Below are positions 4,001 to 47,611 of a stretch of 64,000 bases of DNA, piece after piece (the stretch's first letter is position 1; each line of letters opens with the position of its first letter). Source of the DNA: a virus. The notes under the pieces are model-generated. The model searched no databases. It saw nothing but the letters and a program-made list of their open reading frames with translations, and was not told the origin of the DNA. The position numbers and the translations under genes are program-made. The stretch is from positions 1 through 64,000 of IMG/VR virus record IMGVR_UViG_3300017991_000003. One strand, given 5' to 3'.

Positions 4001-6228
4001 ACATCACGATCCGCGTCAAAGACATCCTCACATCCGCCAATGTGCGCCTCGCTGATATCACGAACTTCACGGTTCCGATCAAGGAGACCGCGGACGAGGT
4101 CTTGGCCAAGACGCCTGATGGCGAGGGCTACTACGCCTGGGACCTGCGTGTCATCGGCATCGAGACGAGTGGTGTGTGGCCCACGACTGTCAACTTGATT
4201 GTTGATAATGGCAACGGTAACACGGATACCCTAACGCTGATCTCGGTGGAGTCAGCTCAGCCGTGCATCACCGAGATCACGGTCGATGACCCCACCCCGC
4301 AGGTTAGTGGTGGCGAGCCCTTCTGGAACTTCGAGGCTGGTATTGCGAACCAACGCACCCTCTACTTCCACACCACTGGGATCAACAACACCCTACCTGA
4401 CAAGCCGTCCTTCGTACCCACTACCGACGTGGGCCCGGGAACGCTGGCACCGGTGGGCAATGTCACACTGGTGTCGGGTGCTCCGCCCGCTGCGGCCATC
4501 TGGGCCCAGGACTTCCTGCGATCGTCCGACGTCGACGCGACGACTCAGATCTCGTTCCTCTCGAACACGGCGTCGAACGGAGACCCGAAGACTTGTACGC
4601 TCTCCTTCCCCGACTCCATCGAGTTCATCGAAGTACTAGGCCTTACCTATAGCGGCTCTGGCGGCGAGGGTGATCAGTCGGCAGGTACCGACTCCTCGAA
4701 ACTGGCTCGGGCCCAAGTGGTCTTCTCCAGCGCTCCCGAGGAGGGTCACTACTCCGAGTTCACCGTCTACGGCCGCTTCTCCCCGGCTGATGGTGCTGGT
4801 AGCGACATCACGGTCGACTTCTACGACGAGAACGGCAGCTCGGTGACCTCGAGTGTGACCGTGACCTCGGCGAGCTCGACCGCGGTCAGCGGCTACGTCA
4901 AGTTCGCCGACGACACCGCGCAGCGCATCCTGCGGGTGCGCGTGACCAACTCGACGCTATCGAAGACCACGACCGGCGTCCTCAACCGCACGGTTGTGAC
5001 GCACCCGGCGCCTCGCGTCCGCGGTGCGACCATGACCCCGCCCCACGAAGGGACGACCGGGGCGACGATCACGGTGGTGGGGTCTAACCTCACGCCCCCG
5101 GATCCGCCGACCGGCGCCTCGGCTCTCAGCTACGGCTACACCTTCTTCGATAGCGCGGCCAGCGCGGTCCTCTCGTCGGTGACCCTGGTCTCGGCCTCGA
5201 GCCGGCAGCTGGTGTTCACCGCAAACGTGGCTGCTAGTACGGCTGGCGAGACGATCGGGATCGCCATTGACTATCTGGGCGGCAACACCCACCGGGCCGG
5301 CAACCTCATCACGGTCCTCGAGGAAGAGGAAAACGACGCGTCTATCACCGACGTGCGCCTGTACGCCAAGGGCTCGGACCTCACGTCCACGACCCCGACA
5401 GCGCCGCAGACCTTCATCGACGGCACGGCATGGCTCATGGTCGTGGGCACCGGCCTCGGCGCCGCCAACGTAGCCTCCGACGGCACGGGCCTCTTCATTG
5501 AGGTGGTCGGCGAGCTCGATGACGGTAGCTCCTCGAACATCGCTGAGACGCCCCCGGGCCCCGGCACCACTGAGGCGCTGGCTAGCACGTCGATCTACCC
5601 CGGCACCTTCCGGGTCCAGAGCGACACGCAGCTCTTGATCGAGGTGCCCTGCACCCCGGCCTACTCCAACGCGCGTATCCGAGTGCACCTGGTCAAGCCG
5701 GCCACGCACCCTGATGGTGCGGTCGAGTGGGACCAGGCAGTGATCGACGACACGGGTGAAGGCACGGCGCGTAACCTGCCGAACGTGGGCTTGACGACTC
5801 GTTACGGGGCTGCGGCCCGTACCCCGAAGATCAACACTGACCCCACGGCCGGCGTCACGCACTACGACGTGGCCCGGGCCTTCCAGGCCAACAGCGGCGC
5901 CGGGACCGAGGGTGATACCTTCTCGGTGACGGTCCGTCTCGAGTCGGCGGTGACTACTGCGGACGCTCCGGCGGTCGTGGCAGTGGCTGACAGCACCTAC
6001 GGGGTCGAGTTCGAGGATGTGACGGTTGCCAAGACCGCTAATCCGCTCGAGATCCAGATCACGGTCACTGTCCCCACGCCTGGGGTGAACAACACCTACC
6101 CCCTGGCGGCGTTCGATTCGGCCACGCCGGCCGTTCCGGCCCTGCGCTTTGCTAACGGGCAGCCCATCGCGGCTGTGACCCTTGGCGCGAGTGATTGGGG
6201 CAGCATCTCCACTCAGGTTCCGTTCTAG
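1054..6228 (+). CDS. giant (1724 aa) putative tail fibre / adhesin-like structural protein
   Basis: Single uninterrupted ORF; Thr/Ser/Gly/Val/Asp-rich beta-type composition; no catalytic motif recognised; ATG at 1054 three nt after the preceding stop. Confidence 0.5.
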   Translation: MADQSYTTTSYITLKKPDSGSFQNIWDIPVNENWDTIAALFAGAVEVGHTHSGEDGQGPQLDHVDLLSVGSYTHAQIDAHIDSSPLHKNTQVQTISGDHLNSPSVTIVSNVSEIQFSNATVVDKGSGVVRVIALGTSTSPELYSKVQSAPVAWTDNFNWPHATSIGTYCWESVRTTDQHPEFLATGPAVGAPGTLARIELDGAVEPQGYALQHATCHVPHGTVQRVTLHVDRLEGPAGEAIDTTDDVTLTLDLLSATIGKSFDRPAAFGLSLVINKPAGSDTLDFALSLRPHGTDDNQEVIWTDFSGPLPSEYAGTFDQLPQAFLAGCHEFSLRRDPDEADAFWLQYYYNEGLVFRKYFSTLSADPTTALFASGLQDLVSNLGNWPTDPQPVYGRMGWGLGYNLVSGAQLICDVSCATVCSQDDVEVVTGPVTPYPEEVSPPGQAAASPCCPGYADFDGLAVGDAWDFDGPGLGLPEAQWTITGIIGDEYGTQNGPGFEVQNLSDGTYWPVFCAPPTLDTFTSNPISGYQVDQTVELTGISLPAGNDEHATLTITHGDSTWPLSWLTPGSSQFYNQGDTIAAGIITVSDLTWTAQPDGSSKLTVTYNTGPNLPWGRVLDFQVEPGYDVLLASDYTASWTAAVEVVAPPGIVTLPGFAGVVAYWDDVTDPANPEWVLADVLTPIPEGSWVYITVSAANWPMGATFWDEGNGFVGWTIQDTATGGVLPNGEYGINFLPSNGLSLLWSQFTPDTVPSDVGGTLPAFISGDEPPSSTAFTTLPPGYQLGTSALPSLGAVQMYAIIKLDDDYYTTQGGNTPVTLALRNPLTGSVMGTGDLPETLIPQVNPRAPVIDDASLSISTTTFTPGEEDITLSFKVSYLDAVDNTIELGLSSGWDATMPATVTIDGASPAPTMSLTDNGDGTVTVEVDNLKLGTSGAVRTYIKNSGISDTLPNQDSVAWGVVDTTTAPVIAQDSIAVYENAATDITIRVKDILTSANVRLADITNFTVPIKETADEVLAKTPDGEGYYAWDLRVIGIETSGVWPTTVNLIVDNGNGNTDTLTLISVESAQPCITEITVDDPTPQVSGGEPFWNFEAGIANQRTLYFHTTGINNTLPDKPSFVPTTDVGPGTLAPVGNVTLVSGAPPAAAIWAQDFLRSSDVDATTQISFLSNTASNGDPKTCTLSFPDSIEFIEVLGLTYSGSGGEGDQSAGTDSSKLARAQVVFSSAPEEGHYSEFTVYGRFSPADGAGSDITVDFYDENGSSVTSSVTVTSASSTAVSGYVKFADDTAQRILRVRVTNSTLSKTTTGVLNRTVVTHPAPRVRGATMTPPHEGTTGATITVVGSNLTPPDPPTGASALSYGYTFFDSAASAVLSSVTLVSASSRQLVFTANVAASTAGETIGIAIDYLGGNTHRAGNLITVLEEEENDASITDVRLYAKGSDLTSTTPTAPQTFIDGTAWLMVVGTGLGAANVASDGTGLFIEVVGELDDGSSSNIAETPPGPGTTEALASTSIYPGTFRVQSDTQLLIEVPCTPAYSNARIRVHLVKPATHPDGAVEWDQAVIDDTGEGTARNLPNVGLTTRYGAAARTPKINTDPTAGVTHYDVARAFQANSGAGTEGDTFSVTVRLESAVTTADAPAVVAVADSTYGVEFEDVTVAKTANPLEIQITVTVPTPGVNNTYPLAAFDSATPAVPALRFANGQPIAAVTLGASDWGSISTQVPF

Positions 6229-7839: not shown

Positions 7840-8192
7840 GCCAAGAACACGCAGATGCCCTGATTACGGGCATGATCGCTGGTCTTGAGAAGCATGCTGG
7901 CCAGATCGGTAGCATGATGGACAAGCGTATCGAGCTCCAGAATGCAAACTCGGCTATGCGCGGCGCGGGGAAGGCGGTTGAGCCGGCCGGGCGCGCGTAC
8001 CAACGCCGCCTCGTGGCCGGTAAGCTAAGACGCGGGCGCGCCGCCGGCCTATCGAATACCGAGAACATCCGTCGAGTCAGGGGCTTTGAGCAGACCCGGC
8101 TCGACGCGGCTGAGGGGACACTGGCCGCGACCAGGAGAGCACCTCTACGCGACCGCGCCGGCTGGGCCGCTAAGAGACTCCTTCGTAAGTAG
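7836..8192 (+). CDS. hypothetical protein (Arg/Ala-rich)
   Basis: 118 aa ORF, ATGA overlap with upstream gene. Confidence 0.45.
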   Translation: MSQEHADALITGMIAGLEKHAGQIGSMMDKRIELQNANSAMRGAGKAVEPAGRAYQRRLVAGKLRRGRAAGLSNTENIRRVRGFEQTRLDAAEGTLAATRRAPLRDRAGWAAKRLLRK

Positions 8193-8194
8193 CC

Positions 8195-8812: not shown

Positions 8813-9339
8813 CCGAGACATGGAAAGAGGTCCCGGGCTACCCCGGGTACGAGGTCTCTGATCAGGGGCGGGTACGATCGTGGCGATCCAAACGCTACCC
8901 CGGGAAGCGTCGCAAGAAGCCGTGGGTTCTGCGCCCGTGGACGAACTCGGAGGGGTACCTCCGCGTCAGCCTTTGTAAGGACGGGAAGCGGGATACGCGG
9001 CTTGTGCATCGCGTAGTGCTCTCGGCGTTTGATCCTGACCCGCCCGCAGAGCGGTTCCAGGGAGAGCATCTAGACGGGAGCAAGGACAACAACAAGCTAG
9101 CTAACCTCCGTTGGTCGACTCCAAAGGAGAACAACGCTCGGAAGCATGAGCACGGTACTCAGCCGAAGCGCGGTGAGGAGTCACACCAAGCCCGTCTAAC
9201 CGAGGATCAGGTTCGAGAGATCCGTCGGCTGAAGGCGGAGGAGGGGTGGTCGTTCACCAAGCTGGGCAAGCACTTCGGTGTCAGCGATGTGGCTTGCTCC
9301 AAGATCGTTCGCCGTAAGACCTGGAGTCACGTCAAATGA
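8809..9339 (+). CDS. free-standing HNH homing endonuclease (NUMOD4-like N-terminus)
   Basis: N-terminal W-x-x-VPGYPGYEVSDQGRVRS motif; HNH core EHLDGSKDNNKLANLRWSTPKENN (about 9064..9129). Confidence 0.7.
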   Translation: MTETWKEVPGYPGYEVSDQGRVRSWRSKRYPGKRRKKPWVLRPWTNSEGYLRVSLCKDGKRDTRLVHRVVLSAFDPDPPAERFQGEHLDGSKDNNKLANLRWSTPKENNARKHEHGTQPKRGEESHQARLTEDQVREIRRLKAEEGWSFTKLGKHFGVSDVACSKIVRRKTWSHVK

Positions 9340-11231: not shown

Positions 11232-11611
11232 TGGGCGCCAAGGGCAGTGGGCGTACACGCATCGAAGCGGACCTGATGCCTCGGGTCCGTGAGGGCTTTG
11301 CACGTCGTCTCCAAGACATGGGGACGATGAGCAAGCTCGGCGCCATCCTGCTCAAGCCCAACCAAGGGACACAGCGCCGCATCCGGCGTGAGACCCTCAA
11401 TATGGACACGGTCGGTGATCAGAAGCGTTGGCAGATGCTGCACAACGACTCCGAGCGCTATGAGGTCATCACGGCCAAGGACAGCAACACCAACCGCGGT
11501 AACTACTGCCACGTGACCTACATCGAGAAGGGTGACGACCTCCCCCTCGTCAAGAGCGAGAGCGAGCTCCGTTCTGAGGATAAAGAGCGCATCAAAGAGG
11601 AGGGCGGCTGA
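11231..11611 (+). CDS. hypothetical protein
   Basis: 126 aa ORF; ATGA-type overlaps at both ends. Confidence 0.5.
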   Translation: MGAKGSGRTRIEADLMPRVREGFARRLQDMGTMSKLGAILLKPNQGTQRRIRRETLNMDTVGDQKRWQMLHNDSERYEVITAKDSNTNRGNYCHVTYIEKGDDLPLVKSESELRSEDKERIKEEGG

Positions 11612-17600: not shown

Positions 17601-18765
17601 CCCCGGCGCCCGGAAGGGCTTGATCGACAAAGGCCTGAGCGTGGCGGATACGGGCTACTTCAGCCGCATGCTCGTCAACAGCTCGATCGAGAACCAGGTG
17701 ACCGTCGCGGACTGCGGAACCAAGTCGGGCCAGGATCTGCCGCTCAACTCCCAGGAGCTCGCGCACCGCTACGGCGCCGAGGGCCGCTACCGCAACGTCT
17801 TGATCACCTCGGACATCGCCCGCCGCCTGCGCTCCCTAGGCCAGAAAACGGTCAAGGTCCGTAGCCCTCTGACTTGTCAGGCGCAGAAGGGCGTCTGTCA
17901 GAAGTGCTTCGGCCTACTCGAGGATGGCAAACCGCCTCGCATCGGTTATCACGTCGGTGCTCTGGCCGGCCAGACCCTGGGTGAGGTGGCTACCCAGCTG
18001 ACCCTGCGCAGCTTCCACACTGGTGGCGCTGTTGGTGGGCCCGACCTGGGTTTTGAGCGCATCCGTCAGATCATGGAGATGCCTCAAAGCATCCAAGGCA
18101 AAGCCATCCTGAGCGAGGCCACCGGCCAGGTGACGCGCATCGACACAGCGCCGGCGGGCGGTAGTTACGTCTACGTCGGCTCCGAGAAGCACTTCATCCC
18201 CAAGGAGCTGGGGGTAGCGGTGAGTCGAGGCCAGCGCGTGAAGGCGGGGGATCAGCTGAGCAAGTCGGGTGTGATCAAGCCTCAGGAGCTGCTAGATACG
18301 ACAGGGGACATCAATCGTGTCCGTACCCATCTGATCAACGAGCTGGATGCTAACTACAGAGCGGCCGGCAAGAAGGTCAACCGCCGGATCTTCGAGACGG
18401 TGGTCAAGCCTCTTACTGACCGTGCGACTGTGACGGACGTCGGAGACGCCGGCCGCCATTTCCCGGTACATGCCGGGGAGGTCATGCCTGTCAACCAGAT
18501 CGAGGAGATGAACCGCAAGCTCAAGCAGCGCCGTCTTCGCCCGATCCAGTTCGAGCCTATGATCATGGGTATCAAGCAGGCCCCGTTCCAGAGCGAGGAC
18601 TTCGTGGGAACGCTCACCCATGAGAAGCTCAAGCGGACCCTCACCGAGGCCCCTAGCCTGGGTAAAGCCACGGACCTTGTGCGCGGCCACCCGATGGCCC
18701 GCCTGGGTCTCACCAACCTCCGATCCATCGAAGCCATCAAACGACCTCAAGGGGTGAAGCGATGA
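11611..18765 (+). CDS. fused beta-beta' multisubunit DNA-dependent RNA polymerase, intein-containing
   Basis: Beta motifs: SQHNPLD...HPSHYG...HTPEG, IPFLPNNDANRVLMG, GDKLSSRHGAKGIVV (14998..15033), VNTGQMLE, GAQRIGILDTFSLL. Beta' motifs in the same frame: NHIDLASEVVHPL, NMDFDGD (about 16807..16827), PSLHKFNIQA. Beta' N-terminal Zn-ribbon appears absent. Confidence 0.85.
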   Translation: MLEGQHFRQFKEALTRSEGIVKGMFPIESPTKRLEVTNLRWTNVGPDVVFDVEKQKQAKLKEQSINAVLVGDVTLRELGSKGKVLDQTKRYPILSVPHLTMNAGYIVNGKEQQVVNQFRLRPGIYTRFTGDDNVEAFLNTTAIGTYKILLDRSTGVIRMRVGTAARTPIYSVLIAAGLTDAEIKTLLGTELYAENKRAAKPDQDIPKLLKRMRPYLNQPAELGEKSKLVRQYLESKPLDPAVNKVTVGEGLDRIDRNALVAAIKKVLKLSKGEAEPDDTESLAFKYILSIEDFVPERLQKAADGLKYKIQGDMRRRDEIRLILPPNRLSQPVESFFTTSEFTRYSSQHNPLDMAAISSLTTTMGDGGISSSHAITDEVRTIHPSHYGLLDPMHTPEGCCSADMEVMTDQGWVAWPDVDRTTRFACLDADQGLTYHRASELHVYDHDGPLYGFKSETLEYLLTPNHRQWVRPIEDRSTRGYRFETAEEMYGKRRRVRIGGHLAYEGQAVDTWQLPEIPKGSNSQKVFPAFAIEDWAEFLGWYLSEGSSRGYVTSITQYEAANPENVAQIEALLTRMQVAWSRSSRSFSIPGKQLVSYLRQFGHSDTKYIPKEAFDFPAAAREAMLEALMLGDGRKGKGRCSCYCTTSEQLAKDVQRLAFGLGVSSKITFEPDTREEHYRGCWIVHLHALTERQVLPQMRAAGNGQFIEEYQGKVYCATVPGGLLYIRRAGKSGFWSGNSKVGVTGHLALGARKKGQTLYVPVYDAKTGKRVEKSVQDLDQATIAFPDQYDNLPDKPGASVKGKPTTKLKKVKARSRNEFTEVSPSAVDYIFVSSDSFFSSTTAAIPFLPNNDANRVLMGDKHIEQSVNLEDPDAPMVQHRIRGRGYEEMFGERLAPRAIDPKTGKPVGGEVLEVTKTHITIRPDGGGRRRIKVPIHDHYPLNSRTFLHDEPVVKKGDKVKPGQILARNNFTKDGDLAVGKNLRVAYTAYKGYNFEDGIVISEGAAKKLTSVHKYEARVEKGKGITVGADAYAAAYPSELEHIRDRARRYDAVGVIKKGQQVVKGDVLIPAIQEVEAHPEYDYKRLHRSAGLRHMDISETWNHDFPGEVVDVVKTRTFVKVVVKSKEPMQVGDKLSSRHGAKGIVVKIIPDEEMYKDEEGATIDILLNPAGVPGRVNTGQMLEAAAGKLARKTGKKYYTDNFNEKGSTIKNLRKELAGAGISDEETIVDPKTGHKLERVLVGDTHIYKLTHQVTGKMKARASVGEPYSVDEQPVKGSGSGAQRIGILDTFSLLSGDATAFLEDAFGLKSQKNDEYWRALQTGQTLPPPKTPFIEEKFVAMLIGAGIDLKQKGSRIDAGPLTDAEVLSMSNGAIERPVAVKASNLKPERGGLFDPGKTGGPGGNYWNHIDLASEVVHPLMTDAAASVGGFKTKKEMDQIIQGLLAVTEEGEVVEAGTAGAVAGGSGVKRRLATINVPRAIKETELVAATAKGAKLDKAHKRLRYLRSLQASGHSAVDAYINKTLPVIPAKFRQIAPMPDGSLSVADANHGYREVLLINEKIKQLKALGVDEQNLRALNKALADATAGLVGTAPPISRGKVFRGFVSQIHGPTPKSGLAQSKLMGRNQDLSGRSTVIPNPKLGMDEVGIPAEIAYKIYKPFVIKRLVTAGHKPLDARSMVEQGHPAARRALEVEAEDRPVLMNRAPSLHKFNIQALKPRVIDGKAVEVNPLIVSGYNMDFDGDTAGLHVPVSEEARREAREKLLPSRNLFSPREEFVVHAPTKETILGVYLMTTPKGLASKSFSSDQEMVKAYQAKEIKVNEAVKVQGAVTCAGQAIFNTALPMDLRVGRTSVTGPRLSQLLVRIGRQLGPDRAAQVISKIKDLGNHYVTEVGFSVSLRDLELDTSKRDQIVNKLKRDAKTKGFDEAAGEALEDIAALLASAEDNRFVEAGITSGALGSKGIHRMLASTVAVTDHKGKTVPIPVEKSYAEGHDLGTYLGTTPGARKGLIDKGLSVADTGYFSRMLVNSSIENQVTVADCGTKSGQDLPLNSQELAHRYGAEGRYRNVLITSDIARRLRSLGQKTVKVRSPLTCQAQKGVCQKCFGLLEDGKPPRIGYHVGALAGQTLGEVATQLTLRSFHTGGAVGGPDLGFERIRQIMEMPQSIQGKAILSEATGQVTRIDTAPAGGSYVYVGSEKHFIPKELGVAVSRGQRVKAGDQLSKSGVIKPQELLDTTGDINRVRTHLINELDANYRAAGKKVNRRIFETVVKPLTDRATVTDVGDAGRHFPVHAGEVMPVNQIEEMNRKLKQRRLRPIQFEPMIMGIKQAPFQSEDFVGTLTHEKLKRTLTEAPSLGKATDLVRGHPMARLGLTNLRSIEAIKRPQGVKR
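12802..13821 (+). mobile_element. intein with LAGLIDADG homing-endonuclease domain inserted after the conserved TPEG of the beta module
   Basis: Begins CCSADMEVMTDQG (block A-like), TPNH (block B-like), two LAGLIDADG-like helices (LGWYLSEGS, EALMLGDGRKG), ends ...FWSGN followed by Ser; flanks (HTPEG / SKVGV...IPFLPNNDANR) restore beta-subunit colinearity. Boundaries within a few codons. Confidence 0.65.
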
Positions 18766-21429: not shown

Positions 21430-23128
21430 TAACCCGAACCTCGGCGGCCAGCCGCTCTTCGTCTCGGCCCCCGACAACCTGCTTCAGAAGCTCGCCAGCT
21501 CCAAGCTCTCCAAGGACCCCAAGGAGTGGGAACAGGAGATCATGGACTACCTGCATGAGCAGCACCCGTACATCGCCGACCACAAGGTCGTGGTGGCCAT
21601 GAACAAGACGGATACCGACGACGGCCATGGCGTGGGCCACGTCAAGATCGGCGACAAAGTCACCATGCCGGTGATCGTCGAGAGCAACCGTCTTCAGCCG
21701 CTGGACCTGTTCGTGGCTGACGACCGTCTCCAGCCGCTGACCAAGGAGGCCTTCACCGCCGCGGTGCAGAGCCACTCCTTCGGCAAAGCCGTGAAGCCGG
21801 GCAAGGGCGAGGCGTCTGACAGCTCGATCACCTACGCGACCCTGCCGCCCTTCGACGGTAAGTACGCCTATGGCTCCTTGGGCTTCACCCGGGACCAGCT
21901 GACCGAGGTCCTCGAGCCCCTGCACGAGGCCAATCAGATGGGCTTCTGCCTGGCCAACCCTTGGTTTGGGGAGGTCCTGGGCGAGTACATCAAGCACGCC
22001 CAGCTCGAGCAAGAAGAGGAGAAGGTGGCCGGCGTCGCGTACAGCGCGCGCATGGTGACTACCCGACCCTTCGAGACCATCAAGACCGCGGGTTTTGCCC
22101 AGGTGTCGACGGATAAAGGCAACGTCCCCGCTCTAGTCTTCGATCACCATCTGACCTTTGGACGCGGTGAGGTGGCTACGCCGGGTCGGTTCTCGGTGCT
22201 CGGTCTGGATAAGGAAGCCACCTACGGTCGCGCCTGGCGAGGCTACCCCGCCGGGCGCCCTGTCCAGGAGTTCGACATCCCGGAGCGTGAGATCGGCGAC
22301 CGGGCGGTGCTCGCCCTGATCAAGGAAGGATCGGCCGTGGCTAGTGAGCCCTTCACGGTCCTGGACCAGGATGATAAGCGCACGCTGGTTGAGGCCGATG
22401 ACGGTCGGCGGTGGTCGCTGCGCTTTGATGCCGACAACCCACTGTACAAGCAGGCGGAGGATCAGATCTTCCTGTCTGACGAGTGGGCGATGTTCCCGGT
22501 GGGCCGCGAGGCGGATCTTCTGAACGTCGACGTGGCGAACCAGAAGACCCTGCCGGTAGGTATGACCTCGATTGAGAAGGTGGGCGGCCTGTTCAAGGTC
22601 CACCAGGCCGGGCGCCTCGAGAGTCTGAAGCGCGTGCCGGCCGAGGGCATGGCTCTGGATAAGCTGGCGAGCTACTTGACGGGCTTGGACGATGAGGTCC
22701 GCGGAGCGATCCTGGACCACATGGATAAGGTCGGCCGCGCCTTCTTCGTCATCTATCCCGAGGTCGAGAAGACCGCTGGCGAGACCTACTCGTTCCCCGA
22801 GCCGGATCCGTCTGTTTTCGAGTCTTGCACGCTGGCTGCTGGCCTGATCACCCCCGACCTGTGCAAGCGCGCCAAGGTCGAAGAGGAGAAGGCCAAGAAG
22901 ACCATCGATGCGATCCTGGGCTTGAACTTCCTCAATGAGGAGAACATGCACAAGTTCGTGGACCGCATCGACGCACTCGAGGAGGCCAAGGACTGCGTGG
23001 CCCAGCTGCTTCTGGCTAGTCGCCTTGGGCTATCCATCGACTCCCAGCCCCTGCGGACGGCGATGTTCTCTCTGGACTCGGTGTCTCGTGATCTCCGCGA
23101 GCTCCGCAACGCGGTGACCGCTAAGTAG
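21419..23128 (+). CDS. hypothetical protein (569 aa)
   Basis: Long ORF with coding codon bias; overlaps upstream stop; function not recognised. Confidence 0.6.
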   Translation: MATDNPNLGGQPLFVSAPDNLLQKLASSKLSKDPKEWEQEIMDYLHEQHPYIADHKVVVAMNKTDTDDGHGVGHVKIGDKVTMPVIVESNRLQPLDLFVADDRLQPLTKEAFTAAVQSHSFGKAVKPGKGEASDSSITYATLPPFDGKYAYGSLGFTRDQLTEVLEPLHEANQMGFCLANPWFGEVLGEYIKHAQLEQEEEKVAGVAYSARMVTTRPFETIKTAGFAQVSTDKGNVPALVFDHHLTFGRGEVATPGRFSVLGLDKEATYGRAWRGYPAGRPVQEFDIPEREIGDRAVLALIKEGSAVASEPFTVLDQDDKRTLVEADDGRRWSLRFDADNPLYKQAEDQIFLSDEWAMFPVGREADLLNVDVANQKTLPVGMTSIEKVGGLFKVHQAGRLESLKRVPAEGMALDKLASYLTGLDDEVRGAILDHMDKVGRAFFVIYPEVEKTAGETYSFPEPDPSVFESCTLAAGLITPDLCKRAKVEEEKAKKTIDAILGLNFLNEENMHKFVDRIDALEEAKDCVAQLLLASRLGLSIDSQPLRTAMFSLDSVSRDLRELRNAVTAK

Positions 23129-23135
23129 GTCCGCG

Positions 23136-24218
23136 ATGGCCGGCTCCACGGGGCCGTACTCGCGTTCTCAACTCTGCCGCAAGTACGGGATCACTGACAG
23201 GACCCTGAGGGCCCTCGAGGATCGAGGGACTCTTGTGCTCACGTGGTACCCCCGCAACGGGCTCATGGTCACCGACCTTGAGTCGAATGACCAAAAGCGC
23301 ATTCTGGCGATGGCGCGCAATCACGTCATGTCATTTGGGAGGGCGCAGGGGATTCCCCGGCTGCCCTTCCTGCGCTTCCTGTTCCTTCGTTTTATCCAGG
23401 TCCCGGTGGAGGATCTGTACGCGGAGCTTCTGGACAGGAACATGATTGCGGCCCGTAGCTTCAAGCTCCCTCAGCTGAAGAAGATGCACAAGGCCTTTGT
23501 GGAGGCGGTCCCGCGCCCGCTTCAGAAGAAGGTACGGGCGCATGCCGAGGCCTCGACCGCCACGGAGAAGAAGCAGCTTGACGTGCTGCTCAAGGTCTGC
23601 GGCATCTACGAGGCCTACCACAACCCACAGCAGGAGCAGAGCTTCAAGTACCTGTCGGATCCTGAGATCAAACTAGGCATCGACATGGGTTTGAGCTCTC
23701 GCGCCAAACTGCCTGAGATTGCTGACTTCATCGCAGACGTGGCGGGCTTCTCGATCAACCTCGAGGCGCTCCTGTTCTACCACGTCCTCTACCACGACAT
23801 CAGCTTCCTGGACAACGACGAGATCCAGGCCTACCTGAAGGGCCTGAAGCCGTCGCATCGGGACCTCCTAGGTAAAGCCGTCGGCTCCACGATCCCCGAG
23901 CTCCGCATGGCTCTCGGCTTCGTCGAGGACATGTCGATCGAGGACACCGTGGTCCAGCTTCGGAACGCGGTCCTAACCAAGACCTCGGCGACCCTGCTTG
24001 CCCCCGGCTCCCAAGAGAACACCCGAGAGTTCAGCGCTCTCTTGCGCAACTTCGCCTACTTGGTCGATCGCTCGAATATCGAGGGTACCGGCAAAGGAGG
24101 GGCCGCCGCGTCTATGCCCGACGTGTTCAGCCAGTTCGAGATGAAGATCTCGCAGATGGATGGGGCTGGCTTGTTTCGGCTCCCCTCCGCCGAAGGAGAA
24201 GAACTGAACCATGGATGA
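23136..24218 (+). CDS. hypothetical protein (360 aa)
   Basis: ORF ends overlapping the terminase start. Confidence 0.55.
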   Translation: MAGSTGPYSRSQLCRKYGITDRTLRALEDRGTLVLTWYPRNGLMVTDLESNDQKRILAMARNHVMSFGRAQGIPRLPFLRFLFLRFIQVPVEDLYAELLDRNMIAARSFKLPQLKKMHKAFVEAVPRPLQKKVRAHAEASTATEKKQLDVLLKVCGIYEAYHNPQQEQSFKYLSDPEIKLGIDMGLSSRAKLPEIADFIADVAGFSINLEALLFYHVLYHDISFLDNDEIQAYLKGLKPSHRDLLGKAVGSTIPELRMALGFVEDMSIEDTVVQLRNAVLTKTSATLLAPGSQENTREFSALLRNFAYLVDRSNIEGTGKGGAAASMPDVFSQFEMKISQMDGAGLFRLPSAEGEELNHG

Positions 24219-26040
24219 TGCCACGTTCGGGGGTACGCCGCTCTCCTCGAGCAATGTGGAGCTCCTTGAGGATCTGCACGAGCTCTTCCGAGATAACGAC
24301 GACATCACTGACGAGCAGTGGGAGGAGCTAGACTGGTTCGCCTACAACCAGGAAGCTGAAGAGGCCGCAGAGGAGTCTGCGGACCGGGCTGATCCGATCA
24401 ACCCGCCTCCGGGCCTTGCTGAGGGCCTGGCTCACGGCGGCGTCATTATGGCCACCATCTCGGATATGGTGGAGAACCTCCTGACGGTCGACCAGGAGCC
24501 TTTCAGCTTCGTCGGACGGGAGTACCTGAAGGGGCTGTACGACCCGGTAGAAGAGTACCCGGAGGGGTGCCGTAACCAGATCTGGATCGCCGGCCGTCAG
24601 GTCGAGAAGTCAACCACCCAGAGCGCCAAGTCCGTGGCCTTGGGGGCGCTGACCAAGAGCTACAAGACCCTGTACGTGGCGCCCCGCTTCGACCAGGTCC
24701 GGGTCTTCAGCCAGCAGCGCTTCAAGCCCATGTGCGAGGACAGCCCGAACCTCGCCCCGTGGATCAAGCCCAGCCGGACGCTGTGGCAGGTCTCCGCCCG
24801 AGAGTTCATGAACGGGGCGTTCTACAACTTCCGGAGCTGTTACCTGAGCGCCGACAACGCTCGAGGCATTACCTGCCACCACCTCAACGTCGACGAGATC
24901 CAGGACATCGTCTCTGATGCTATCCCTGTTCTGGAGGAGTGCCAAAGCCACGCTACGGCCGAACTGCGGTTCCGCTCCTATGCCGGGACGCCCAAGACGA
25001 CCTCCAATGTCCTGAGCCGGCGGTACGAGAACAGCTGCCAGTTCGAGTGGTTGAGTCAGTGCGCGGCGTGCAACCACTGGAACTTCATGGACGAGCGGAT
25101 CGTGGGCGACGACTTCTTCGCCTGCGTCCGGTGCGGCAAGGAGATCAACCCCAAGGTGGGGCAGTTCGTGCCTAAGCGCCCCGAGCTCCTCGACAAGTGC
25201 TGGGGGTTCCGAATCAGTCAGCTGATGGTCCCGTTCCAGAGTCACGCGGACATCATCGCCAAGCGGGACGACCCTAACTACAGCCGCCAGAAGTACTTCA
25301 ACGAGTGCTTGGGTCTGCCATACGACGAGGGCCAGCTGGTCCTGACCGAGGCTGTGATGCGGGACGCCTGCGACGCGGATCGAGGGATGTGGACGATCCA
25401 ACAGTGCCGCGAGCTGGCCGACCGCGGCGTGCCGCTCTTCGGCGGGGTCGATTACGGGCCGGGTGAGGGTGAGGATCCTTCTTACACAGTGCTGACTATC
25501 GGCTGGTGGGCGACCGCCGGCCACTTCGAAGTCCTCTGGATGCGCAGACTGGTTGGCGATGAGTCGAACCTGGCCCTCCAGACCAAGGTCATCAACCAGT
25601 ACTTCACCGAGGCCCGTGTCCGCTGGATGGGGGCTGACTGGGGGTTCGGTGCTGCTATCAACAAGCAGCTGATCCACGAGCACGGCTGGCACCGCGTGGC
25701 TCATCAGCGTTGCCTGCTCGAGTTCCAGTACGGCGGCCAGAAGCAGATGGCTTCCTGGAACGCCAAGGCGGAGCGGTACATCATCGACCGCAACCAGGGC
25801 ATGGAGAAGCTGATCGACTCGATCCGCACCAATCAGGTCCGATTCTTCCGAATGGAGGAGATGTCCCAGTTCGTTGACGACTTCACGACTATCTACGTGG
25901 AGTTCGATGAGCGGCGGAACACCCGGAAGTACGACCACGACCTGCCGGACGATGCTTTCCACTCGGTCAACTACGCCTACATGGCGGGCCTCCAGCACCG
26001 GAATAAGCTGGTCCCGAGCTGGCTGACTCCGCTGGATTGA
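24211..26040 (+). CDS. terminase large subunit (ATPase + RNaseH-like nuclease) with inserted Zn-ribbon
   Basis: Deviant Walker A IAGRQVEKST, Walker B-like HHLNVDEIQD, C-terminal GVDYGPGEGEDPSYTVLTIGW acidic nuclease-type motif; CAACNHW...CVRCGK ribbon. Confidence 0.55.
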   Translation: MDDATFGGTPLSSSNVELLEDLHELFRDNDDITDEQWEELDWFAYNQEAEEAAEESADRADPINPPPGLAEGLAHGGVIMATISDMVENLLTVDQEPFSFVGREYLKGLYDPVEEYPEGCRNQIWIAGRQVEKSTTQSAKSVALGALTKSYKTLYVAPRFDQVRVFSQQRFKPMCEDSPNLAPWIKPSRTLWQVSAREFMNGAFYNFRSCYLSADNARGITCHHLNVDEIQDIVSDAIPVLEECQSHATAELRFRSYAGTPKTTSNVLSRRYENSCQFEWLSQCAACNHWNFMDERIVGDDFFACVRCGKEINPKVGQFVPKRPELLDKCWGFRISQLMVPFQSHADIIAKRDDPNYSRQKYFNECLGLPYDEGQLVLTEAVMRDACDADRGMWTIQQCRELADRGVPLFGGVDYGPGEGEDPSYTVLTIGWWATAGHFEVLWMRRLVGDESNLALQTKVINQYFTEARVRWMGADWGFGAAINKQLIHEHGWHRVAHQRCLLEFQYGGQKQMASWNAKAERYIIDRNQGMEKLIDSIRTNQVRFFRMEEMSQFVDDFTTIYVEFDERRNTRKYDHDLPDDAFHSVNYAYMAGLQHRNKLVPSWLTPLD

Positions 26041-26115
26041 GTTGCTCCTTGACCGCAGCAACTTAGGATTGGCTAATAGGTTGCGCTCCTTGGACGCAGT
26101 CTCGTACCATTTCAC

Positions 26116-26137
26116 TGGCACTGGCTCCCAGTGTCAG
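26116..26137. promoter_or_regulatory. 22-nt conserved element TGGCACTGGCTCCCAGTGTCAG (copy 1)
   Basis: 20 nt upstream of the 26157 start; preceded by ATTT and hairpin-like repeats as in copy 2. Confidence 0.4.
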
Positions 26138-26156
26138 CTTCAGCTGAGCAACACGA

Positions 26157-27293
26157 ATGAACTCCCTCGCCCTCTACTTCATGGCCCGGAGCGCGGCCCG
26201 TGATCTAGTGCGTAGTGATGTCCCCCTCAACGAGGGAATCGCCAAGCACGCCTCGGAGCACGGCCTGAGCCAGCTTCAGATCCAGCGCGTGGTGGAGGCC
26301 GCCAACCACGAAGCAAACGCCCTCCTCCAGAAAACAGCGGAGGACAAGACCTTCAGCTTCGACTTGGCCAGCCTGGACGGGGTCCTCTCGGCCCTGACGC
26401 CGGGCACGGCGGCCACTACGGTCAGCCTTGGGAAGCTAGCTGAGGCTGCTGACGCCCTTCTGGAGCCTCGAACGCGGTTTGATGAGCGTGTCGAGGCTCT
26501 TCCGCGTGAGTCCGAGGACGCCAAGATTGCCCGCTTCCGCTCGACGATGCACGCCCTGGACAAGGTGGCTGATCTGGCCGCTACCCAGATGCGGGTTGTC
26601 CAGATGGACCGCATGCGTCAGATGGAGAAATGCGCCAGCGGATTCGAGCGTCTGGTGACCCAGGCCGGGGAGTACATCCGCCGCGGCGGCGCCCTCGAGG
26701 ACATGCGCAAGTACGCGCAGGCCGTCGAGCCGGGCTTCGACCGAGGCTGGGACAAGATCTTCGGCCGGGTCCAAGAAGAGCTCCAGAAGCTCGGTCACCC
26801 CTTCACGGGCGAGCTGGCCTCGGCGACCGAGCTGATGGCTGACCGCAAGGACCGGCCCGGAGGCCCGCTGCCCCACGCGGGCACCCTGAAGGTCACTAAC
26901 GGCCGCCACGCCCTGGCCGGCGAGCTCAGCACCCTCCGGGACAATGTCTCGTTCCTGGATCGCCTGGCTGACCGTACCCGGGAGATCGACAACTTCAACA
27001 GAGCTGTCCGGGTCTCTCAGCGCATGATCATCGACAACCAGGACGTGGACACCCTGTTCGCCAAGGAAGCTGAGAAACTGGCTGCCTTTACCGGGGAGGA
27101 GCTTGGGGAGCACATCGAGAAGCTCGCCAGGAAGGACTCGAACATCTCTACGGTGGAGAAGGGTCTGGTCGGCACTGCTGTTGACCATACCGGTAAAGCC
27201 TCGATCAAGGCCGTGATGAAGCGCGCCCTCTCTGATCACATCCCTGGGGCCTTTGTCGGTCCCGGTACCCCTGCTGCCTACCGCTCCAAATGA
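26157..27293 (+). CDS. hypothetical protein (378 aa)
   Basis: ORF after a 116-nt intergenic region carrying repeats; no motif recognised. Confidence 0.55.
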   Translation: MNSLALYFMARSAARDLVRSDVPLNEGIAKHASEHGLSQLQIQRVVEAANHEANALLQKTAEDKTFSFDLASLDGVLSALTPGTAATTVSLGKLAEAADALLEPRTRFDERVEALPRESEDAKIARFRSTMHALDKVADLAATQMRVVQMDRMRQMEKCASGFERLVTQAGEYIRRGGALEDMRKYAQAVEPGFDRGWDKIFGRVQEELQKLGHPFTGELASATELMADRKDRPGGPLPHAGTLKVTNGRHALAGELSTLRDNVSFLDRLADRTREIDNFNRAVRVSQRMIIDNQDVDTLFAKEAEKLAAFTGEELGEHIEKLARKDSNISTVEKGLVGTAVDHTGKASIKAVMKRALSDHIPGAFVGPGTPAAYRSK

Positions 27294-28057
27294 ACGACAT
27301 TCTGACGAAGTTCGCCGGCGTCTACGGGGGTCCCCTCGATGCAGACGAGAAGCGCGAGGTCGGTGAGTTCTCGGCCAAGCTCCTGAAGGCCGCTGCTGCG
27401 GGCGAGGGGGCTACGGTGGTTGAGATGCTGAAGGAGGCCGCTAGTCAGGTCTCCGATCCGGATGACTACGAGGCCTTGATGGGTATGCTCGAGCATCTGG
27501 AGAAAGAGGGCGCTGTCGGCTACAGGAAGGCCCTGGTCTACGGCCTACCCGCTATTGCGGCGGGCCTCAGCGCCGTACCCGCCCTAGCCTCCTTGACCCA
27601 GCACCTCGGCCGCAAGAAGCGAATCGAGCAGAGCCGGCATCAGATTCAGCGGGAGCATCCGATGCTCCGTGAGGATGTTGACTTCCACCGCTACTTCGAC
27701 ACTGTGAAGCGATTCGCTCCCGATGTCGCCGCTGATCCCCTGGTCGCCGGCAACATCATGGTCGAGATGCACCGACTTGGGCCGGCGGCTATGACGCCTA
27801 CCCGGATCAATGAGCTTCTCGGCCTCCAGGGTCGCATGAGTGAGCACCGAGGTACCATTCCTCGTCAGGTTGCTGACCTAGGTGCTGGTATCACCAGCGG
27901 CATCAAGACGCATAGCGAGTCCGCTGAGATCCTGGACCGGAACCCGCACACGGCTAAGGTTGAGCGCGCGAACCGCGCGATGTCGGCGCTCCAGAGGCGT
28001 GAGGAGCTGCTCGGGGACCAGAAGGTCCAGGACGCTATGGCCAAGCTAAAGCCCTGA
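27290..28057 (+). CDS. hypothetical protein (255 aa)
   Basis: ATGA overlap with upstream gene. Confidence 0.55.
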   Translation: MNDILTKFAGVYGGPLDADEKREVGEFSAKLLKAAAAGEGATVVEMLKEAASQVSDPDDYEALMGMLEHLEKEGAVGYRKALVYGLPAIAAGLSAVPALASLTQHLGRKKRIEQSRHQIQREHPMLREDVDFHRYFDTVKRFAPDVAADPLVAGNIMVEMHRLGPAAMTPTRINELLGLQGRMSEHRGTIPRQVADLGAGITSGIKTHSESAEILDRNPHTAKVERANRAMSALQRREELLGDQKVQDAMAKLKP

Positions 28058-28272
28058 ACTATGCGCAACGGAGCGATTAGCCACGGGGACCAAACGCGCG
28101 CGTCCTTCATCCAGCCGAGCAAAGACGCCCGGCGGATGGGGACGACGCGTCGTAAGGAGACGACCCCGCAGCAAGATCGCGATCGAGGCCCTGATTCCTA
28201 CCCTGAGCACGCCCACAACAAGTACGCAGCGATGCTTGAGGGCTTCTTGACCGTCATCAACCAGCGCATCTG

Positions 28273-44554: not shown

Positions 44555-44703
44555 GGTCGGCCTCCAGTGTTGGGGTGATGATGGTGCCGGGGTAGACATT
44601 CCCCGGATCACTAAACTCATGCCCGAACCCTCGCTTGTTCTGGCGCTTTTGGGTACCTACACTTCTTGTCGATGATGAGTCGGCGCCTCTGCGGGGCGGC
44701 TTC

Positions 44704-44736
44704 TTTCATGGGCAGGGCCTCGACGCAGCGGCAGCG
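44704..44736 (+). terminator. long GC hairpin followed by ATTTT on + strand; orientation and function unresolved
   Basis: AGGGCCTCGACGC-AGCGGCA-GCGTCGGGGCCCT, about 13 bp with one G-U; sits between sigma-factor stop and membrane-protein start. Confidence 0.35.
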
Positions 44737-44753
44737 TCGGGGCCCTATTTTGT

Positions 44754-44775
44754 GGCACTGGCTCCCAGTGTCAGA
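44754..44775. promoter_or_regulatory. 22-nt conserved element TGGCACTGGCTCCCAGTGTCAG (copy 2), palindromic core ACTGG-N3-CCAGT
   Basis: Exact duplicate of 26116..26137; overlaps sigma-factor stop codon. Confidence 0.4.
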
Positions 44776-45619
44776 GATTGGGATCGATGTCCTCGAGCAG
44801 CACCCACAGCTCTCGAAGCCCCTCGTTCTCGATCTGCCTCACACGCTCCCGAGTCCGCCGGTAGAAGCGTGCGAGCTCCCCATAGGGGGTCGGGTTCTCG
44901 TGCCCGAACCCGTAGTGCCGGCGGATGATGTCCTCAGCCTCCGGCTTCAGCTGCGCCAGGGCCCAGTTCAAGAGGTCCCGGTTCTCCTGATTGATGACCC
45001 GATCGAGCATCGCCGGGGCCGGTCCTAGCTGAACCCCCTGCGCTGTGTCCTGGGTGAGCCGGCCGCACGCCTCGGTGATCTCGGTGTCCAGGGTCACCAA
45101 CCGACTATCCCGAGCGTGCCTGTACTTCCGGATCTTGTCCGGGTCCCAGCCGAGCTCCTCGAAGATCTCCTCCTCGTCCGGGTAGTAGCCGTTGGTCTTC
45201 AACATCCGGTACGCCTTGGTCTGGTAGTCGGTGACCAGGGACCGGTGGCGAATAGGCTTGGCTGAGAGGTTGCGGTACTCCCGACGGACCTCGGCGTCGA
45301 TCCACCAGACGGCGTAGGTACTGAACTTGACGTGGCTCTTCGTGCCCTTGACGACCCGGTCAAGGTCGAAATCCCTGAGCGCCTTCATAAGCCCCACGAA
45401 CCCCGCGGAGATCATGTCGTGATAGCGCGCGTCCTTGGCCTCGACGAAGCGCTGCACTCGTCGGATTACCAGGCGGACATTGTGTTCGACCAGCCGCTGA
45501 GCTGCGGCATCATCCCCCTCGCGTAGCGCTTTGACGAGCAGCTCGCGTTCTTCCTCCTTCGACAGGACTGGGTGATCAGCTGCCTTGTGTAGGGCGATCT
45601 CGTCGAAGGACCAGTCCAC
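44771..45619 (-). CDS. sigma-70-family RNA polymerase sigma factor
   Basis: Region 2: LVEHNVRLVIRRVQRF...GFVGLMKALRDFD...KFSTYAVWWI; region 4 helix-turn-helix: NPTPYGELARFYRRTRERVRQIENEGLREL. Confidence 0.75.
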   Translation of the reverse strand: MDWSFDEIALHKAADHPVLSKEEERELLVKALREGDDAAAQRLVEHNVRLVIRRVQRFVEAKDARYHDMISAGFVGLMKALRDFDLDRVVKGTKSHVKFSTYAVWWIDAEVRREYRNLSAKPIRHRSLVTDYQTKAYRMLKTNGYYPDEEEIFEELGWDPDKIRKYRHARDSRLVTLDTEITEACGRLTQDTAQGVQLGPAPAMLDRVINQENRDLLNWALAQLKPEAEDIIRRHYGFGHENPTPYGELARFYRRTRERVRQIENEGLRELWVLLEDIDPNL

Positions 45620-47609: not shown

Positions 47610-47611
47610 AG

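What the first reader, a model, noticed from the sequence alone, without database searches (positions are those of the whole stretch)
26041..26101. Two imperfect direct copies of a hairpin-forming ~20-nt unit after the terminase gene
GTTGCTCCTTGACCGCAGCAAC (26041..26062) and GTTGCGCTCCTTGGACGCAGTC (26080..26101) share GCTCCTTG-R-MCGCAG and each contains an inverted repeat. Together with the 22-mer this makes the 116-nt terminase-downstream spacer one of the few sizeable non-coding regions in the + block; candidate terminator/operator array or packaging-related site.
Basis: seen in the sequence. Interest (0 to 1): 0.4.

Follow-up and report, generated by a model that had tools for sequence, protein, structure and literature searches.

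The report
Tandem promoters after the terminase gene
The two similar 20-base units after this phage's terminase gene are most likely the upstream halves of two back-to-back promoters that restart transcription for the head genes, and the element beside them that looks functional is a 23-base palindrome repeated elsewhere in the genome.

Summary
Copy 1 (26041-26062) and copy 2 (26080-26101) share a 15-mer at 13/15. This is rare for the 116-nt spacer (6 of 5000 shuffles) but not for the window, which holds 31 comparable local repeats.

The hairpins are weak (-5.5 and -4.8 kcal/mol, no better than shuffles) and are absent in relatives. No terminator, Rfam family or packaging signal was found.

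Three related phage lineages (TerL 76-79% identical) keep the spacer: 109-120 nt, plus a 118-nt duplication in one. They do not keep the repeat core. They keep two TTGnnn-N16-18-TAnnnT arrangements at fixed distances from the next gene's ATG: P1 26042-26069 and P2 26081-26110.

A third conserved promoter of the same form lies near the phage's own sigma gene. In one lineage's duplicated spacer, the only two non-coding differences fall on the key -10 bases.

Just downstream of P2 is a 23-bp palindrome (26115-26137, part of 'the 22-mer'). Its arms differ between lineages but match a second copy at the sigma gene's stop codon. The window has five sites (0.1 expected).

Best reading: tandem sigma-70-type promoters followed by an operator or 5' hairpin. 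No transcript data exist.

The parts
24211..26040 (+). Large terminase subunit gene (609 aa)
   Evidence: phrog_675 E 2.9e-64. Pfam GpA_ATPase E 3.4e-9.
26041..26156 (+). 116-nt non-coding spacer. It is the only gap over 40 nt in the packed + strand genes between 8809 and 29682.
   Evidence: Homologous spacers are 117, 109 and 120(+118) nt in lineages A, B and C.
26041..26062 (+). It corresponds to the -35 element plus spacer of predicted promoter P1.
   Evidence: The hairpin is only -5.5 kcal/mol and is not conserved.
26042..26047 (+). P1 -35 hexamer, TTGCTC
   Evidence: The TTG is invariant in four lineages, 0-3 nt after the terL stop.
26064..26069 (+). P1 -10 hexamer, TAGGAT, 16 nt after the -35
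   Evidence: TAnnnT is kept in W, A, B and the downstream copy of C. The upstream duplicate in C has TGCCCT.
26067..26085 (+). Best-conserved block of the spacer, GATTGGCTAATAGGTTGCG. It contains the predicted P1 start site (about 26075-26077) and the start of copy 2.
   Evidence: Alignment A3. The block is unique in the window. The start site is inferred from spacing only.
26080..26101 (+). It corresponds to the -35 element plus spacer of predicted promoter P2.
   Evidence: The hairpin is -4.8 kcal/mol and 54 of 200 shuffles fold as well.
26081..26086 (+). P2 -35 hexamer, TTGCGC
   Evidence: TTGTGC sits at the same place in lineages A and C and is absent in B.
26105..26110 (+). P2 -10 hexamer, TACCAT, 18 nt after the -35
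   Evidence: Lineage A has TACCCT and C has TACACT (the upstream duplicate in C has TACACC). The hexamer ends 46-48 nt before the ATG in W, A and C.
26115..26137 (+). 23-bp palindrome with 10-3-10 layout, CTGGCACTGG-CTC-CCAGTGTCAG. It contains 'the 22-mer', 26116-26137. Read as an operator at the P2 start site or a 5'-terminal RNA hairpin.
   Evidence: -14.6 kcal/mol, 0 of 200 shuffles fold as well. Its centre is 31-32 nt before the ATG in all four lineages (read). Compensatory changes are shown.
26138..26156 (+). 19-nt leader without a Shine-Dalgarno motif, ending ..CACGA before the ATG
26157..27293 (+). First gene after the spacer (378 aa, no family match). It is followed by a protease-like gene and a capsid-like gene.
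   Evidence: Homologues follow terL in L002, L007-L010 and L014-L018.
44752..44774 (+). Second copy of the palindrome (exact 22-mer, 44753-44774). It overlaps the stop codon of the sigma gene.
   Evidence: Lineages A and B carry their own arm sequences at the same place.
44771..45619 (-). Phage sigma-70-family factor gene (282 aa)
   Evidence: Pfam Sigma70_r2 E 1.5e-9 and r4 E 1.7e-8. The translation shows TRERVRQIE and YAVWW.
44635..44663 (+). Third conserved promoter of the same form, TTGTTC-17-TACACT. It points antisense towards the end of the sigma gene.
   Evidence: It is the only such match in this spacer in each of the four lineages, always on the terL-sense strand.
62205..62227 (+). 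Third palindrome site. The arms are kept and the centre differs. It lies inside a 121-aa - strand ORF.
36030..36052 (+). Weaker palindrome site (2 mismatches to the arm pattern), inside a + strand gene
4444..4466 (+). Weaker palindrome site (2 mismatches to the arm pattern), inside the 1724-aa ORF

Best explanation
The spacer after terL is an internal promoter region. It carries two tandem sigma-70-type promoters. P1 is TTGCTC (26042-47), 16 nt, TAGGAT (26064-69). P2 is TTGCGC (26081-86), 18 nt, TACCAT (26105-10). They add transcription for the head-assembly genes that begin at 26157, which are needed in larger amounts than the RNA polymerase and terminase genes upstream. In this genome the two promoters still look alike because of a small tandem duplication or homogenisation. 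In relatives only the functional hexamers remain alike. P2 is predicted to start at about 26117, the first bases of a 23-bp palindrome. That palindrome would act either as an operator for a lineage-specific dimeric DNA-binding protein or as a 5'-terminal stem-loop on the mRNA. Shown: the sequence features, their conservation and positions, and the co-variation of the palindrome between two loci. Inferred: promoter activity, the start sites, which sigma factor is used, and the role of the palindrome.
For: Rarity: TTGnnn-N16-18-TAnnnT occurs only 11 times on both strands of the 64-kb window (13.6 expected), yet two of these lie in the 116-nt spacer. Two or more hits arise in 0.1% (W), 0.2% (A) and 0.55% (C) of spacer shuffles.

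Conservation: the same two arrangements are the only matches in the spacers of lineages A and C. P1 alone is present in B. The -10 hexamers end 86-88 nt (79 in B) and 46-48 nt before the ATG, while the bases between the hexamers diverge.

Natural mutation test: in lineage C the spacer module is tandemly duplicated (118 nt, 95% identical) and is present in two samples. The only two non-coding differences between the copies are A to G at position 2 of the P1 -10 and T to C at position 6 of the P2 -10.

Independent instance: a third promoter of the same form (TTGnnn-17-TACACT, or TACATT in C) is conserved in all four lineages next to the sigma gene. It is followed by a 13-bp GC hairpin and a T run.

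Sigma factor: the phage encodes a sigma-70-family factor. Its sequence keeps TRERVRQIE and YAVWW. From my knowledge of E. coli sigma-70, these are the helix that reads the -35 TTG and the aromatic residues that capture the -10 bases.

Context: this is the only gap in about 21 kb of overlapping genes. No terminator-like site is present, and the hairpins are weak and not conserved.
Against: There are no transcript data of any kind. The hexamers are weak by E. coli standards (P1 scores 3/6 plus 4/6), and the consensus scan found no promoter-like site in the spacer. I chose the pattern TTGnnn-N16-18-TAnnnT after looking at the alignment, so its statistics are partly post hoc. P2 is missing in lineage B. 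The conserved block GATTGGnTAATnGGTTG extends beyond what a -10 hexamer and start site need, and it is unexplained. The host and its promoter grammar are unknown. More distant relatives (TerL about 50% identical) have a different, shorter spacer. W also has a second candidate pair, TTGACC-17-GCTAAT (26049-26077), which is not conserved.
Confidence: 0.5

Rival explanations
1. The spacer is a terminator or attenuator for the terL operon. The hairpin in copy 2 followed by a pyrimidine-rich tail (TCTCGTACCATTTC) stops or reduces read-through, and the downstream genes are re-initiated elsewhere.
For: Each lineage has a small GC hairpin followed by a C/T-rich stretch at this position, for example GGGCTTCCGCCC+CCCTCTCTCT in B. 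Other likely terminators in this genome also have C/T-rich tails (31702-31800 and 47610-47668).
Against: The scan found no terminator-like site between 22000 and 30000. The hairpins have only 4-7 pairs, fold at -4.8 to -6.8 kcal/mol, and are no better than shuffles. Stem sequence and shape are not conserved. The conserved bases are TTG and TAnnnT, not stem positions.
Confidence: 0.12
2. The two units are a pair of direct-repeat binding sites, GTTGY spaced 39 nt apart, for a DNA-binding protein such as a regulator or the small terminase. That is, an operator or recognition array rather than promoters.
For: GTTGY at both unit starts, with 39-nt spacing, is kept in W, A and C.
Against: Only 4-5 bases are shared in relatives, and the second GTTG is lost in B. 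The 15-nt core is specific to this genome. The motif occurs nowhere else in the window. No small-terminase gene or DNA-binding gene was identified nearby. The GTTG bases are equally explained as -35 TTG elements.
Confidence: 0.1
3. The repeat is a neutral remnant of a small tandem duplication (about 39-41 nt, starting at GGATTGA, which includes the terL stop codon). It has no function of its own.
For: GGATTG precedes both units. Lineage C shows that tandem duplication across the terL stop codon does happen here (118 nt). The core similarity is absent in relatives. The window holds 31 comparable local repeats.
Against: Spacer length and the positions of the conserved bases are maintained in four lineages that differ at 35-42% of spacer positions. 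Substitutions in the duplicated copy in C fall on the predicted key bases. A duplication origin is compatible with the promoter explanation and does not compete with it.
Confidence: 0.15
4. The spacer is a packaging site (cos or pac) recognised by terminase.
For: It lies next to terL. TerL has a GpA-type ATPase domain, as in cos phages. The neighbouring palindrome has the two-fold symmetry that a nicking site might have.
Against: None of the related contigs begins or ends in the spacer. The palindrome occurs at five or more places in the genome, including inside genes. No terminal repeat or small-terminase gene was seen.
Confidence: 0.04

Closest known systems
Tandem sigma-70-type promoters, such as E. 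coli rrn P1/P2 and the phage T7 early promoters A1-A3 (from my own knowledge)
   Same: There are two -35/-10 pairs in the same orientation a few tens of bases apart, upstream of one highly expressed operon. The hexamer spacing is 16-18 nt.
   Different: The hexamers here are weak (TTGnnn and TAnnnT only). Promoter activity is not demonstrated. The promoters sit inside a long phage structural operon, directly after the terminase stop codon.
Dispersed phage repressor sites: the 'stoperators' of Cluster A mycobacteriophages (PMC9283540, PMC6550527)
   Same: This comparison concerns the 23-bp palindrome only. It is a short specific motif scattered over the genome, also near stop codons and inside genes. 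Its sequence differs between related phages while staying uniform within a genome.
   Different: Stoperators are 13-bp asymmetric sites bound by a monomer and oriented with transcription, and there are dozens per genome. Here the sites are 10-3-10 palindromes, about six were found, and all lie on the same DNA strand whatever the gene direction. No repressor was identified and no integrase was seen among the proteins I scanned.
Lambda nutL/nutR boxB hairpins (from my own knowledge)
   Same: A phage-specific hairpin is present at two loci. One lies upstream of a gene start and the other directly after a gene's stop codon. The sequence differs between related phages.
   Different: BoxB is recognised through its loop. 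Here the centres differ between copies within a genome and only the arms are kept. No boxA or N-like protein was seen. Two sites lie inside coding regions.
5'-terminal stem-loops that stabilise mRNAs, such as the E. coli ompA leader and T7 phi10 transcripts (from my own knowledge)
   Same: A stable hairpin would sit at the predicted first bases of the P2 transcript, followed by a single-stranded leader of about 20 nt and then the start codon.
   Different: A generic stabiliser would not need the same arm sequence at other loci in the genome.

Membership tests
Sigma-70-type (-35/-10) bacterial promoter | A -35 hexamer resembling TTGACA and a -10 hexamer resembling TATAAT, with A at position 2 and T at position 6, 16-18 nt apart | tested here: inconclusive
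   P1 is TTGCTC-16-TAGGAT and P2 is TTGCGC-18-TACCAT. Spacing and the key bases TTG, A2 and T6 are met, but only 7/12 and 7/12 match the consensus, so the stricter scan did not report them.
Sigma-70-type (-35/-10) bacterial promoter | Hexamers conserved among relatives while the inter-hexamer spacer diverges | tested here: met
   four lineages for P1, three for P2. The duplicate copy in C carries changes at A2 and T6.
Sigma-70-type (-35/-10) bacterial promoter | A mapped transcription start 6-8 nt after the -10 hexamer | not testable with these tools
   No transcript data are available. The starts at about 26075-77 and 26116-18 are predictions.
Intrinsic (Rho-independent) terminator | A GC-rich stem-loop followed directly by a T/U run | tested here: not met
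   No site was found in 22000-30000. The unit hairpins fold at -5.5 and -4.8 kcal/mol, no better than shuffles, and are not conserved.
   The core GCTCCTTGRMCGCAG is absent from lineages A, B and C and from the rest of the window.
cos/pac packaging site | Coincides with genome ends or contig ends, with small-terminase binding repeats next to a small-terminase gene | tested here: inconclusive
   No related contig ends in the spacer. No small-terminase gene was recognised. Physical genome ends cannot be determined from assemblies.
Known RNA families (Rfam 15) | A match at or above the family's gathering score | tested here: not met
   There were no hits at gathering score in the whole window. 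Only chance-level hits were found in 25000-27000.
Dispersed repressor sites (stoperator-like); applies to the 23-bp palindrome | Many copies of one motif per genome, above chance | tested here: met
   There are 5 sites in the window against 0.10 expected, plus 1 more in the source contig.
Dispersed repressor sites (stoperator-like); applies to the 23-bp palindrome | A cognate repressor encoded by the phage, and sites oriented with transcription | tested here: not met
   No HTH, repressor or ParB family was found among 36 window proteins and one protein from L074 scanned. All sites lie on the + strand even in the - strand gene block.
Lambda-type nut/boxB antitermination hairpin | The loop sequence is conserved between copies, and a boxA and an N-like protein are present | tested here: not met
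   Centres differ between copies: CTC, TTC and GGG in W; TTA and TAT in A; AAC and GCC in B. BoxA and N were not searched for specifically.
N4-type hairpin promoter for a virion RNA polymerase | A 5-7 bp stem with a 3-nt loop used by a single-subunit N4-like polymerase | tested here: not met
   The stems are 10 bp. The only polymerase found is a fused bacterial-type beta-beta'. This resemblance was a lead from memory only.

The most novel reading that the evidence does not exclude
The 23-bp palindromes are binding sites for a still unidentified, lineage-specific factor. In each genome this factor sits both at the start of the head-gene transcript (P2) and at the end of a small antisense transcription unit that points into the phage's own sigma gene. 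The factor would couple the switch-on of head genes to antisense control of sigma. That would be a new kind of timing circuit, in a phage lineage that unusually carries both a fused bacterial-type beta-beta' RNA polymerase and an RpoD-like sigma factor.
Probability: 0.2. Interest if true: 0.65.

Novelty: new member of a known kind. Interest (0 to 1): 0.4.

Why it matters
Taken alone, the two units are an ordinary feature: probable tandem promoters in the one gap of a long phage structural operon. They are useful for another reason. With the conserved promoter near the sigma gene, they give a first candidate promoter grammar (TTGnnn-N16-18-TAnnnT) for an uncultured, roughly 190-kb aquatic phage lineage that encodes its own RNA polymerase core and sigma factor. 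They also lie directly beside a co-evolving palindrome network that could be tested as a regulatory switch. A metatranscriptome with 5'-end information from the source sites would test all of this.

Tried and rejected
Database and consensus scans. Rfam gave nothing in the spacer, the whole window or the sigma spacer. The promoter and terminator consensus scan found no terminator, and its only promoter-like hit was one - strand site inside terL. A near-identity search of GenBank phages found no match; TerL is under 30% identical to Bacillus and Listeria phage terminases.

Recurrence of motifs. I looked in the window for other copies of the unit motif, the conserved block GATTGGnTAATnGGTTG, GTTG-N14-YAAC, TATACTA, CTAATAG and AGTGTAGGTAC. 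All were unique or at chance level.

Whole-spacer RNA structure. The z-score is -2.5 in W but only -1.1 to -1.7 in relatives. Apart from the palindrome there is no common fold.

Ideas considered and dropped:
- Sigma-54 promoter: TGGCAC is present but the -12 TTGC element is not.
- CrAss-like phage: the giant ORF is a bacterial-type beta-beta', not a crAss-type polymerase.
- N4-type hairpin promoter: the stems are too long and there is no N4-like polymerase.
- parS/ParB-type centromere: no ParB was found.
- Site-specific recombination sites: the centres differ between copies.
- Peptide motif encoded by the palindrome: the frames do not agree between lineages.
- Regular spacing of palindrome sites: the gaps are 8.7-22.6 kb and irregular.
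- Small ORF in the spacer: the length differences are not multiples of three.

Tests that gave no answer. I tried to test the 62.2-kb palindrome site in relatives, but the 121-aa ORF has no homologues. More distant clades have no palindrome at their sigma stop codon. G-T wobble bias as evidence for an RNA rather than a DNA role was equivocal. Two literature searches for phages with a fused beta-beta' polymerase plus a sigma factor found no description of this lineage.

Full report
**Observation.**
- terL (24211-26040; phrog_675 E 2.9e-64, Pfam GpA_ATPase) ends with TGA at 26038-26040.
- Copy 1, GTTGCTCCTTGACCGCAGCAAC, is at 26041-26062 and copy 2, GTTGCGCTCCTTGGACGCAGTC, is at 26080-26101.
- The next gene (378 aa) starts at 26157.
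- The 15-nt core matches 13/15 at a 41-nt offset.
- Within the spacer this is unlikely by chance (6 of 5000 shuffles). Window-wide there are 31 comparable local repeats against 3.75 in simulations, so the repeat is real but not exceptional.
- The motif does not recur in the window.
- The 'hairpin-forming' part is weak: -5.5 and -4.8 kcal/mol, with 12 and 54 of 200 shuffles folding as well.
- The spacer is the only gap over 40 nt among tightly packed + strand genes from 8809 to 29682.

**Context.**
- The window comes from an uncultured phage (IMGVR_UViG_3300018080_003942). It has no close relative among GenBank phages.
- An identical TerL sits on a 193-kb contig, so the genome is probably much larger than the window.
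- The phage encodes a 2384-aa fused bacterial-type RNA polymerase beta-beta' and a sigma-70-family factor (44771-45619, - strand).

**Relatives.** Three further lineages with TerL 76-79% identical were recovered.
- A: L027-L031.
- B: L032-L036.
- C: L002 and L011.
- All keep the order terL, spacer, homologue of the 378-aa gene. The spacers are 117, 109 and 238 nt.
- The 238 nt of C is 120 nt plus a 118-nt tandem duplication that starts inside the end of terL (95% identical copies). It is present in two different samples.
- Overall spacer identity is 58-65%, against 66-80% for the coding flanks. Conservation is therefore confined to islands.

**What is and is not conserved.**
- What is conserved is: GTTG within 0-3 nt of the terL stop; a block GATTGGnTAATnGGTTGyGC; a second GTTGy 39 nt after the first (W, A, C); and a strong palindrome whose centre is always 31-32 nt before the ATG.

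**Promoter reading.** Every lineage has TTGnnn-N16-TAnnnT directly after the terL stop (P1):

| Lineage | P1 |
|---|---|
| W | TTGCTC-16-TAGGAT |
| A | TTGCTT-16-TACGAT |
| B | TTGACC-16-TACGAT |
| C | TTGTAT-16-TACCCT |

W, A and C have a second one (P2):

| Lineage | P2 |
|---|---|
| W | TTGCGC-18-TACCAT |
| A | TTGTGC-17-TACCCT |
| C | TTGTGC-17-TACACT |

- These are the only matches in those spacers. Their -10 hexamers end 86-88 nt (79 in B) and 46-48 nt before the ATG.
- The pattern is rare: 11 matches on both strands of the 64-kb window, with 13.6 expected. Two of them fall in this 116-nt spacer.
- Two or more hits occur in only 0.1-0.55% of spacer shuffles.
With a 2-nt gap, the W repeat extends to 22/31 and includes both TAnnAT hexamers (read from the sequence).

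**Independent support for the promoter reading.**
- The duplicated spacer of lineage C acts as a natural mutation experiment. The two 118-nt copies differ at six positions. Four are in the part derived from terL coding sequence. The only two in the non-coding part change A to G at position 2 of the P1 -10 and T to C at position 6 of the P2 -10, both in the upstream copy.
- A third promoter of the same form is conserved in all four lineages in the spacer next to the sigma gene, always on the terL-sense strand (W: TTGTTC-17-TACACT, 44635-44663). It is followed by a 13-bp GC hairpin and UAUUUUG. The predicted RNA folds at -63.4 kcal/mol, z -4.5.
- The phage sigma keeps TRERVRQIE and YAVWW. From my knowledge of E. 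coli sigma-70, these correspond to the helix that reads the -35 TTG and the residues that capture the -10 bases. Either the host primary sigma or the phage sigma could therefore use such promoters.

**Limits of the promoter reading.** I chose the pattern after seeing the alignment, the hexamers are weak, and no transcript data exist.

**The palindrome ('the 22-mer').**
- The sequence at 26115-26137 is CTGGCACTGG-CTC-CCAGTGTCAG. It folds at -14.6 kcal/mol, and 0 of 200 shuffles fold as well.
- It begins 4-5 nt after the P2 -10 in W, A and C, so it covers the predicted P2 start.
- An exact 22-mer copy lies at 44753-44774, overlapping the stop codon of the sigma gene.
- I fetched the sigma regions of the relatives. 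Lineages A and B carry, at the same place, palindromes whose arms match their own terL-spacer palindrome and not that of W. A has GTGGTAC..GTACCAC at both sites and B has TGATAGTGG..CCACTATCA at both sites. The centres differ between the two sites.
- Lineage C has a different, longer hairpin at the sigma stop.
- Across 11 sites the 10-3-10 pairing holds in 88% of cells. Five of ten pairs show compensatory changes, and no shuffle reaches the covariation score.
- In W the arm pattern occurs at five places in the window (0.10 expected). It occurs once more in the source contig outside the window. Several sites are inside genes, and all are on the + strand.
- Clades further away lack the element at their sigma stop codon.
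- This pattern (arms uniform within a genome, different between genomes, centres free) points to a sequence-specific trans-acting factor. No candidate protein was found. Whether it acts on DNA or RNA could not be decided.

**Rejected readings.**
- Terminator: none found, and the hairpins are weak and not conserved.
- Operator array made of the two units: the core is not conserved and not repeated elsewhere.
- Packaging site: no contig ends here, there is no small-terminase gene, and the palindrome is multi-copy.
- Known RNA families: none.
- Sigma-54, N4-type, crAss-type, parS and recombinase-site ideas each failed on a defining feature.

**Verdict.** The two units are best explained as the upstream halves of two tandem sigma-70-type promoters (confidence about 0.5). 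These feed the head-gene cluster and are followed by a co-evolving 23-bp palindrome that is the more interesting element. As a kind of feature this is a new member of a known class. The surrounding system (own RNA polymerase, own sigma factor, dispersed lineage-specific palindromes, antisense unit at the sigma gene) deserves separate follow-up.

Noticed in passing
window 11611-18765 (+): A 2384-aa ORF is a single-chain fusion of bacterial-type RNA polymerase beta and beta'. The matches are E 5e-111 to beta' and E 1e-80 to beta of solved bacterial enzymes. A 2021 overview reports that jumbo phages with their own polymerases lack sigma factors and vice versa (PMC7824862), so this phage, which has both, looks unusual.
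   Followed up: partly
window 44771-45619 (-): This is a phage-encoded sigma-70-family factor with regions 2, 3 and 4. Its nearest cellular match is RpoD of a Rhodothermales bacterium at about 31% identity. It keeps TRERVRQIE but has DAEVRR where E. coli sigma-70 has RQAITR.
   Followed up: partly
window 44635-44774 (+): A conserved promoter (TTGTTC-17-TACACT) is followed by a predicted structured RNA of about 80 nt, ending in a 13-bp GC hairpin and UAUUUUG, and then by the palindrome. The unit is antisense to the spacer after the sigma gene. It folds at -63.4 kcal/mol, z -4.5, has no Rfam match, and is a candidate small antisense RNA.
   Followed up: partly
L002 6781-7016 and L011 (same region): There is a 118-nt tandem duplication covering the last 43 nt of terL and most of the spacer, present in two samples. 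The upstream copy carries changes at the two key -10 positions.
   Followed up: yes
window 4445, 36031, 62206; L074 5736: These are further copies of the palindrome arm pattern TGGCACT-N6-CAGTGTCA. They lie inside coding regions, all on the + strand, 8.7-22.6 kb apart.
   Followed up: partly
window 44553-44625 (-): The non-coding stretch CATGAGTTTAGTGATCCGGGGAATGTCTACCCCGGCACCATCATCACCCC is conserved in lineages W, A and B, just upstream of a GGAGG-type ribosome-binding site and the ATG of the gene after sigma. It forms a GATCCGGGG/CCCCGG hairpin, and its role is unknown.
   Followed up: no
window 47900-48190 (- strand gene 47669-49435): A long run of degenerate CTC/TTC/GTC repeats on the + strand encodes an acidic (Glu/Asp-rich) low-complexity region of a 588-aa protein.
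   Followed up: no
TerL homologues P0042, P0047, P0051, P0055 and others: Some related terminases are about 1000-1056 aa and carry intein and LAGLIDADG homing-endonuclease domains (PF14890, PF14528).
   Followed up: no
window 1-16651 versus the IMG/VR contig: The window starts 16.6 kb upstream of the first base of the IMG/VR contig, which begins inside the polymerase gene. Related TerL genes sit on contigs of 183-196 kb, which suggests a genome near 190 kb.
   Followed up: partly
window 1054-6228 (+): A 1724-aa ORF has no PHROG match.
   Followed up: no
L015-L017 spacer after terL: The clade with TerL about 50% identical has a different, well-conserved 70-nt spacer: AATATACTAATAGTGGATGGCCATCCCTTGGGCGAAGAGCCCACC. 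It contains a perfect 12-bp palindrome (GGATGGCCATCC) and a second hairpin ending 16 nt before the ATG.
   Followed up: partly
L003 / L012, downstream of terL: After a clear intrinsic terminator, the sequence holds many degenerate copies of a unit like CGCGGCGTTACTCACGTACAG.
   Followed up: no
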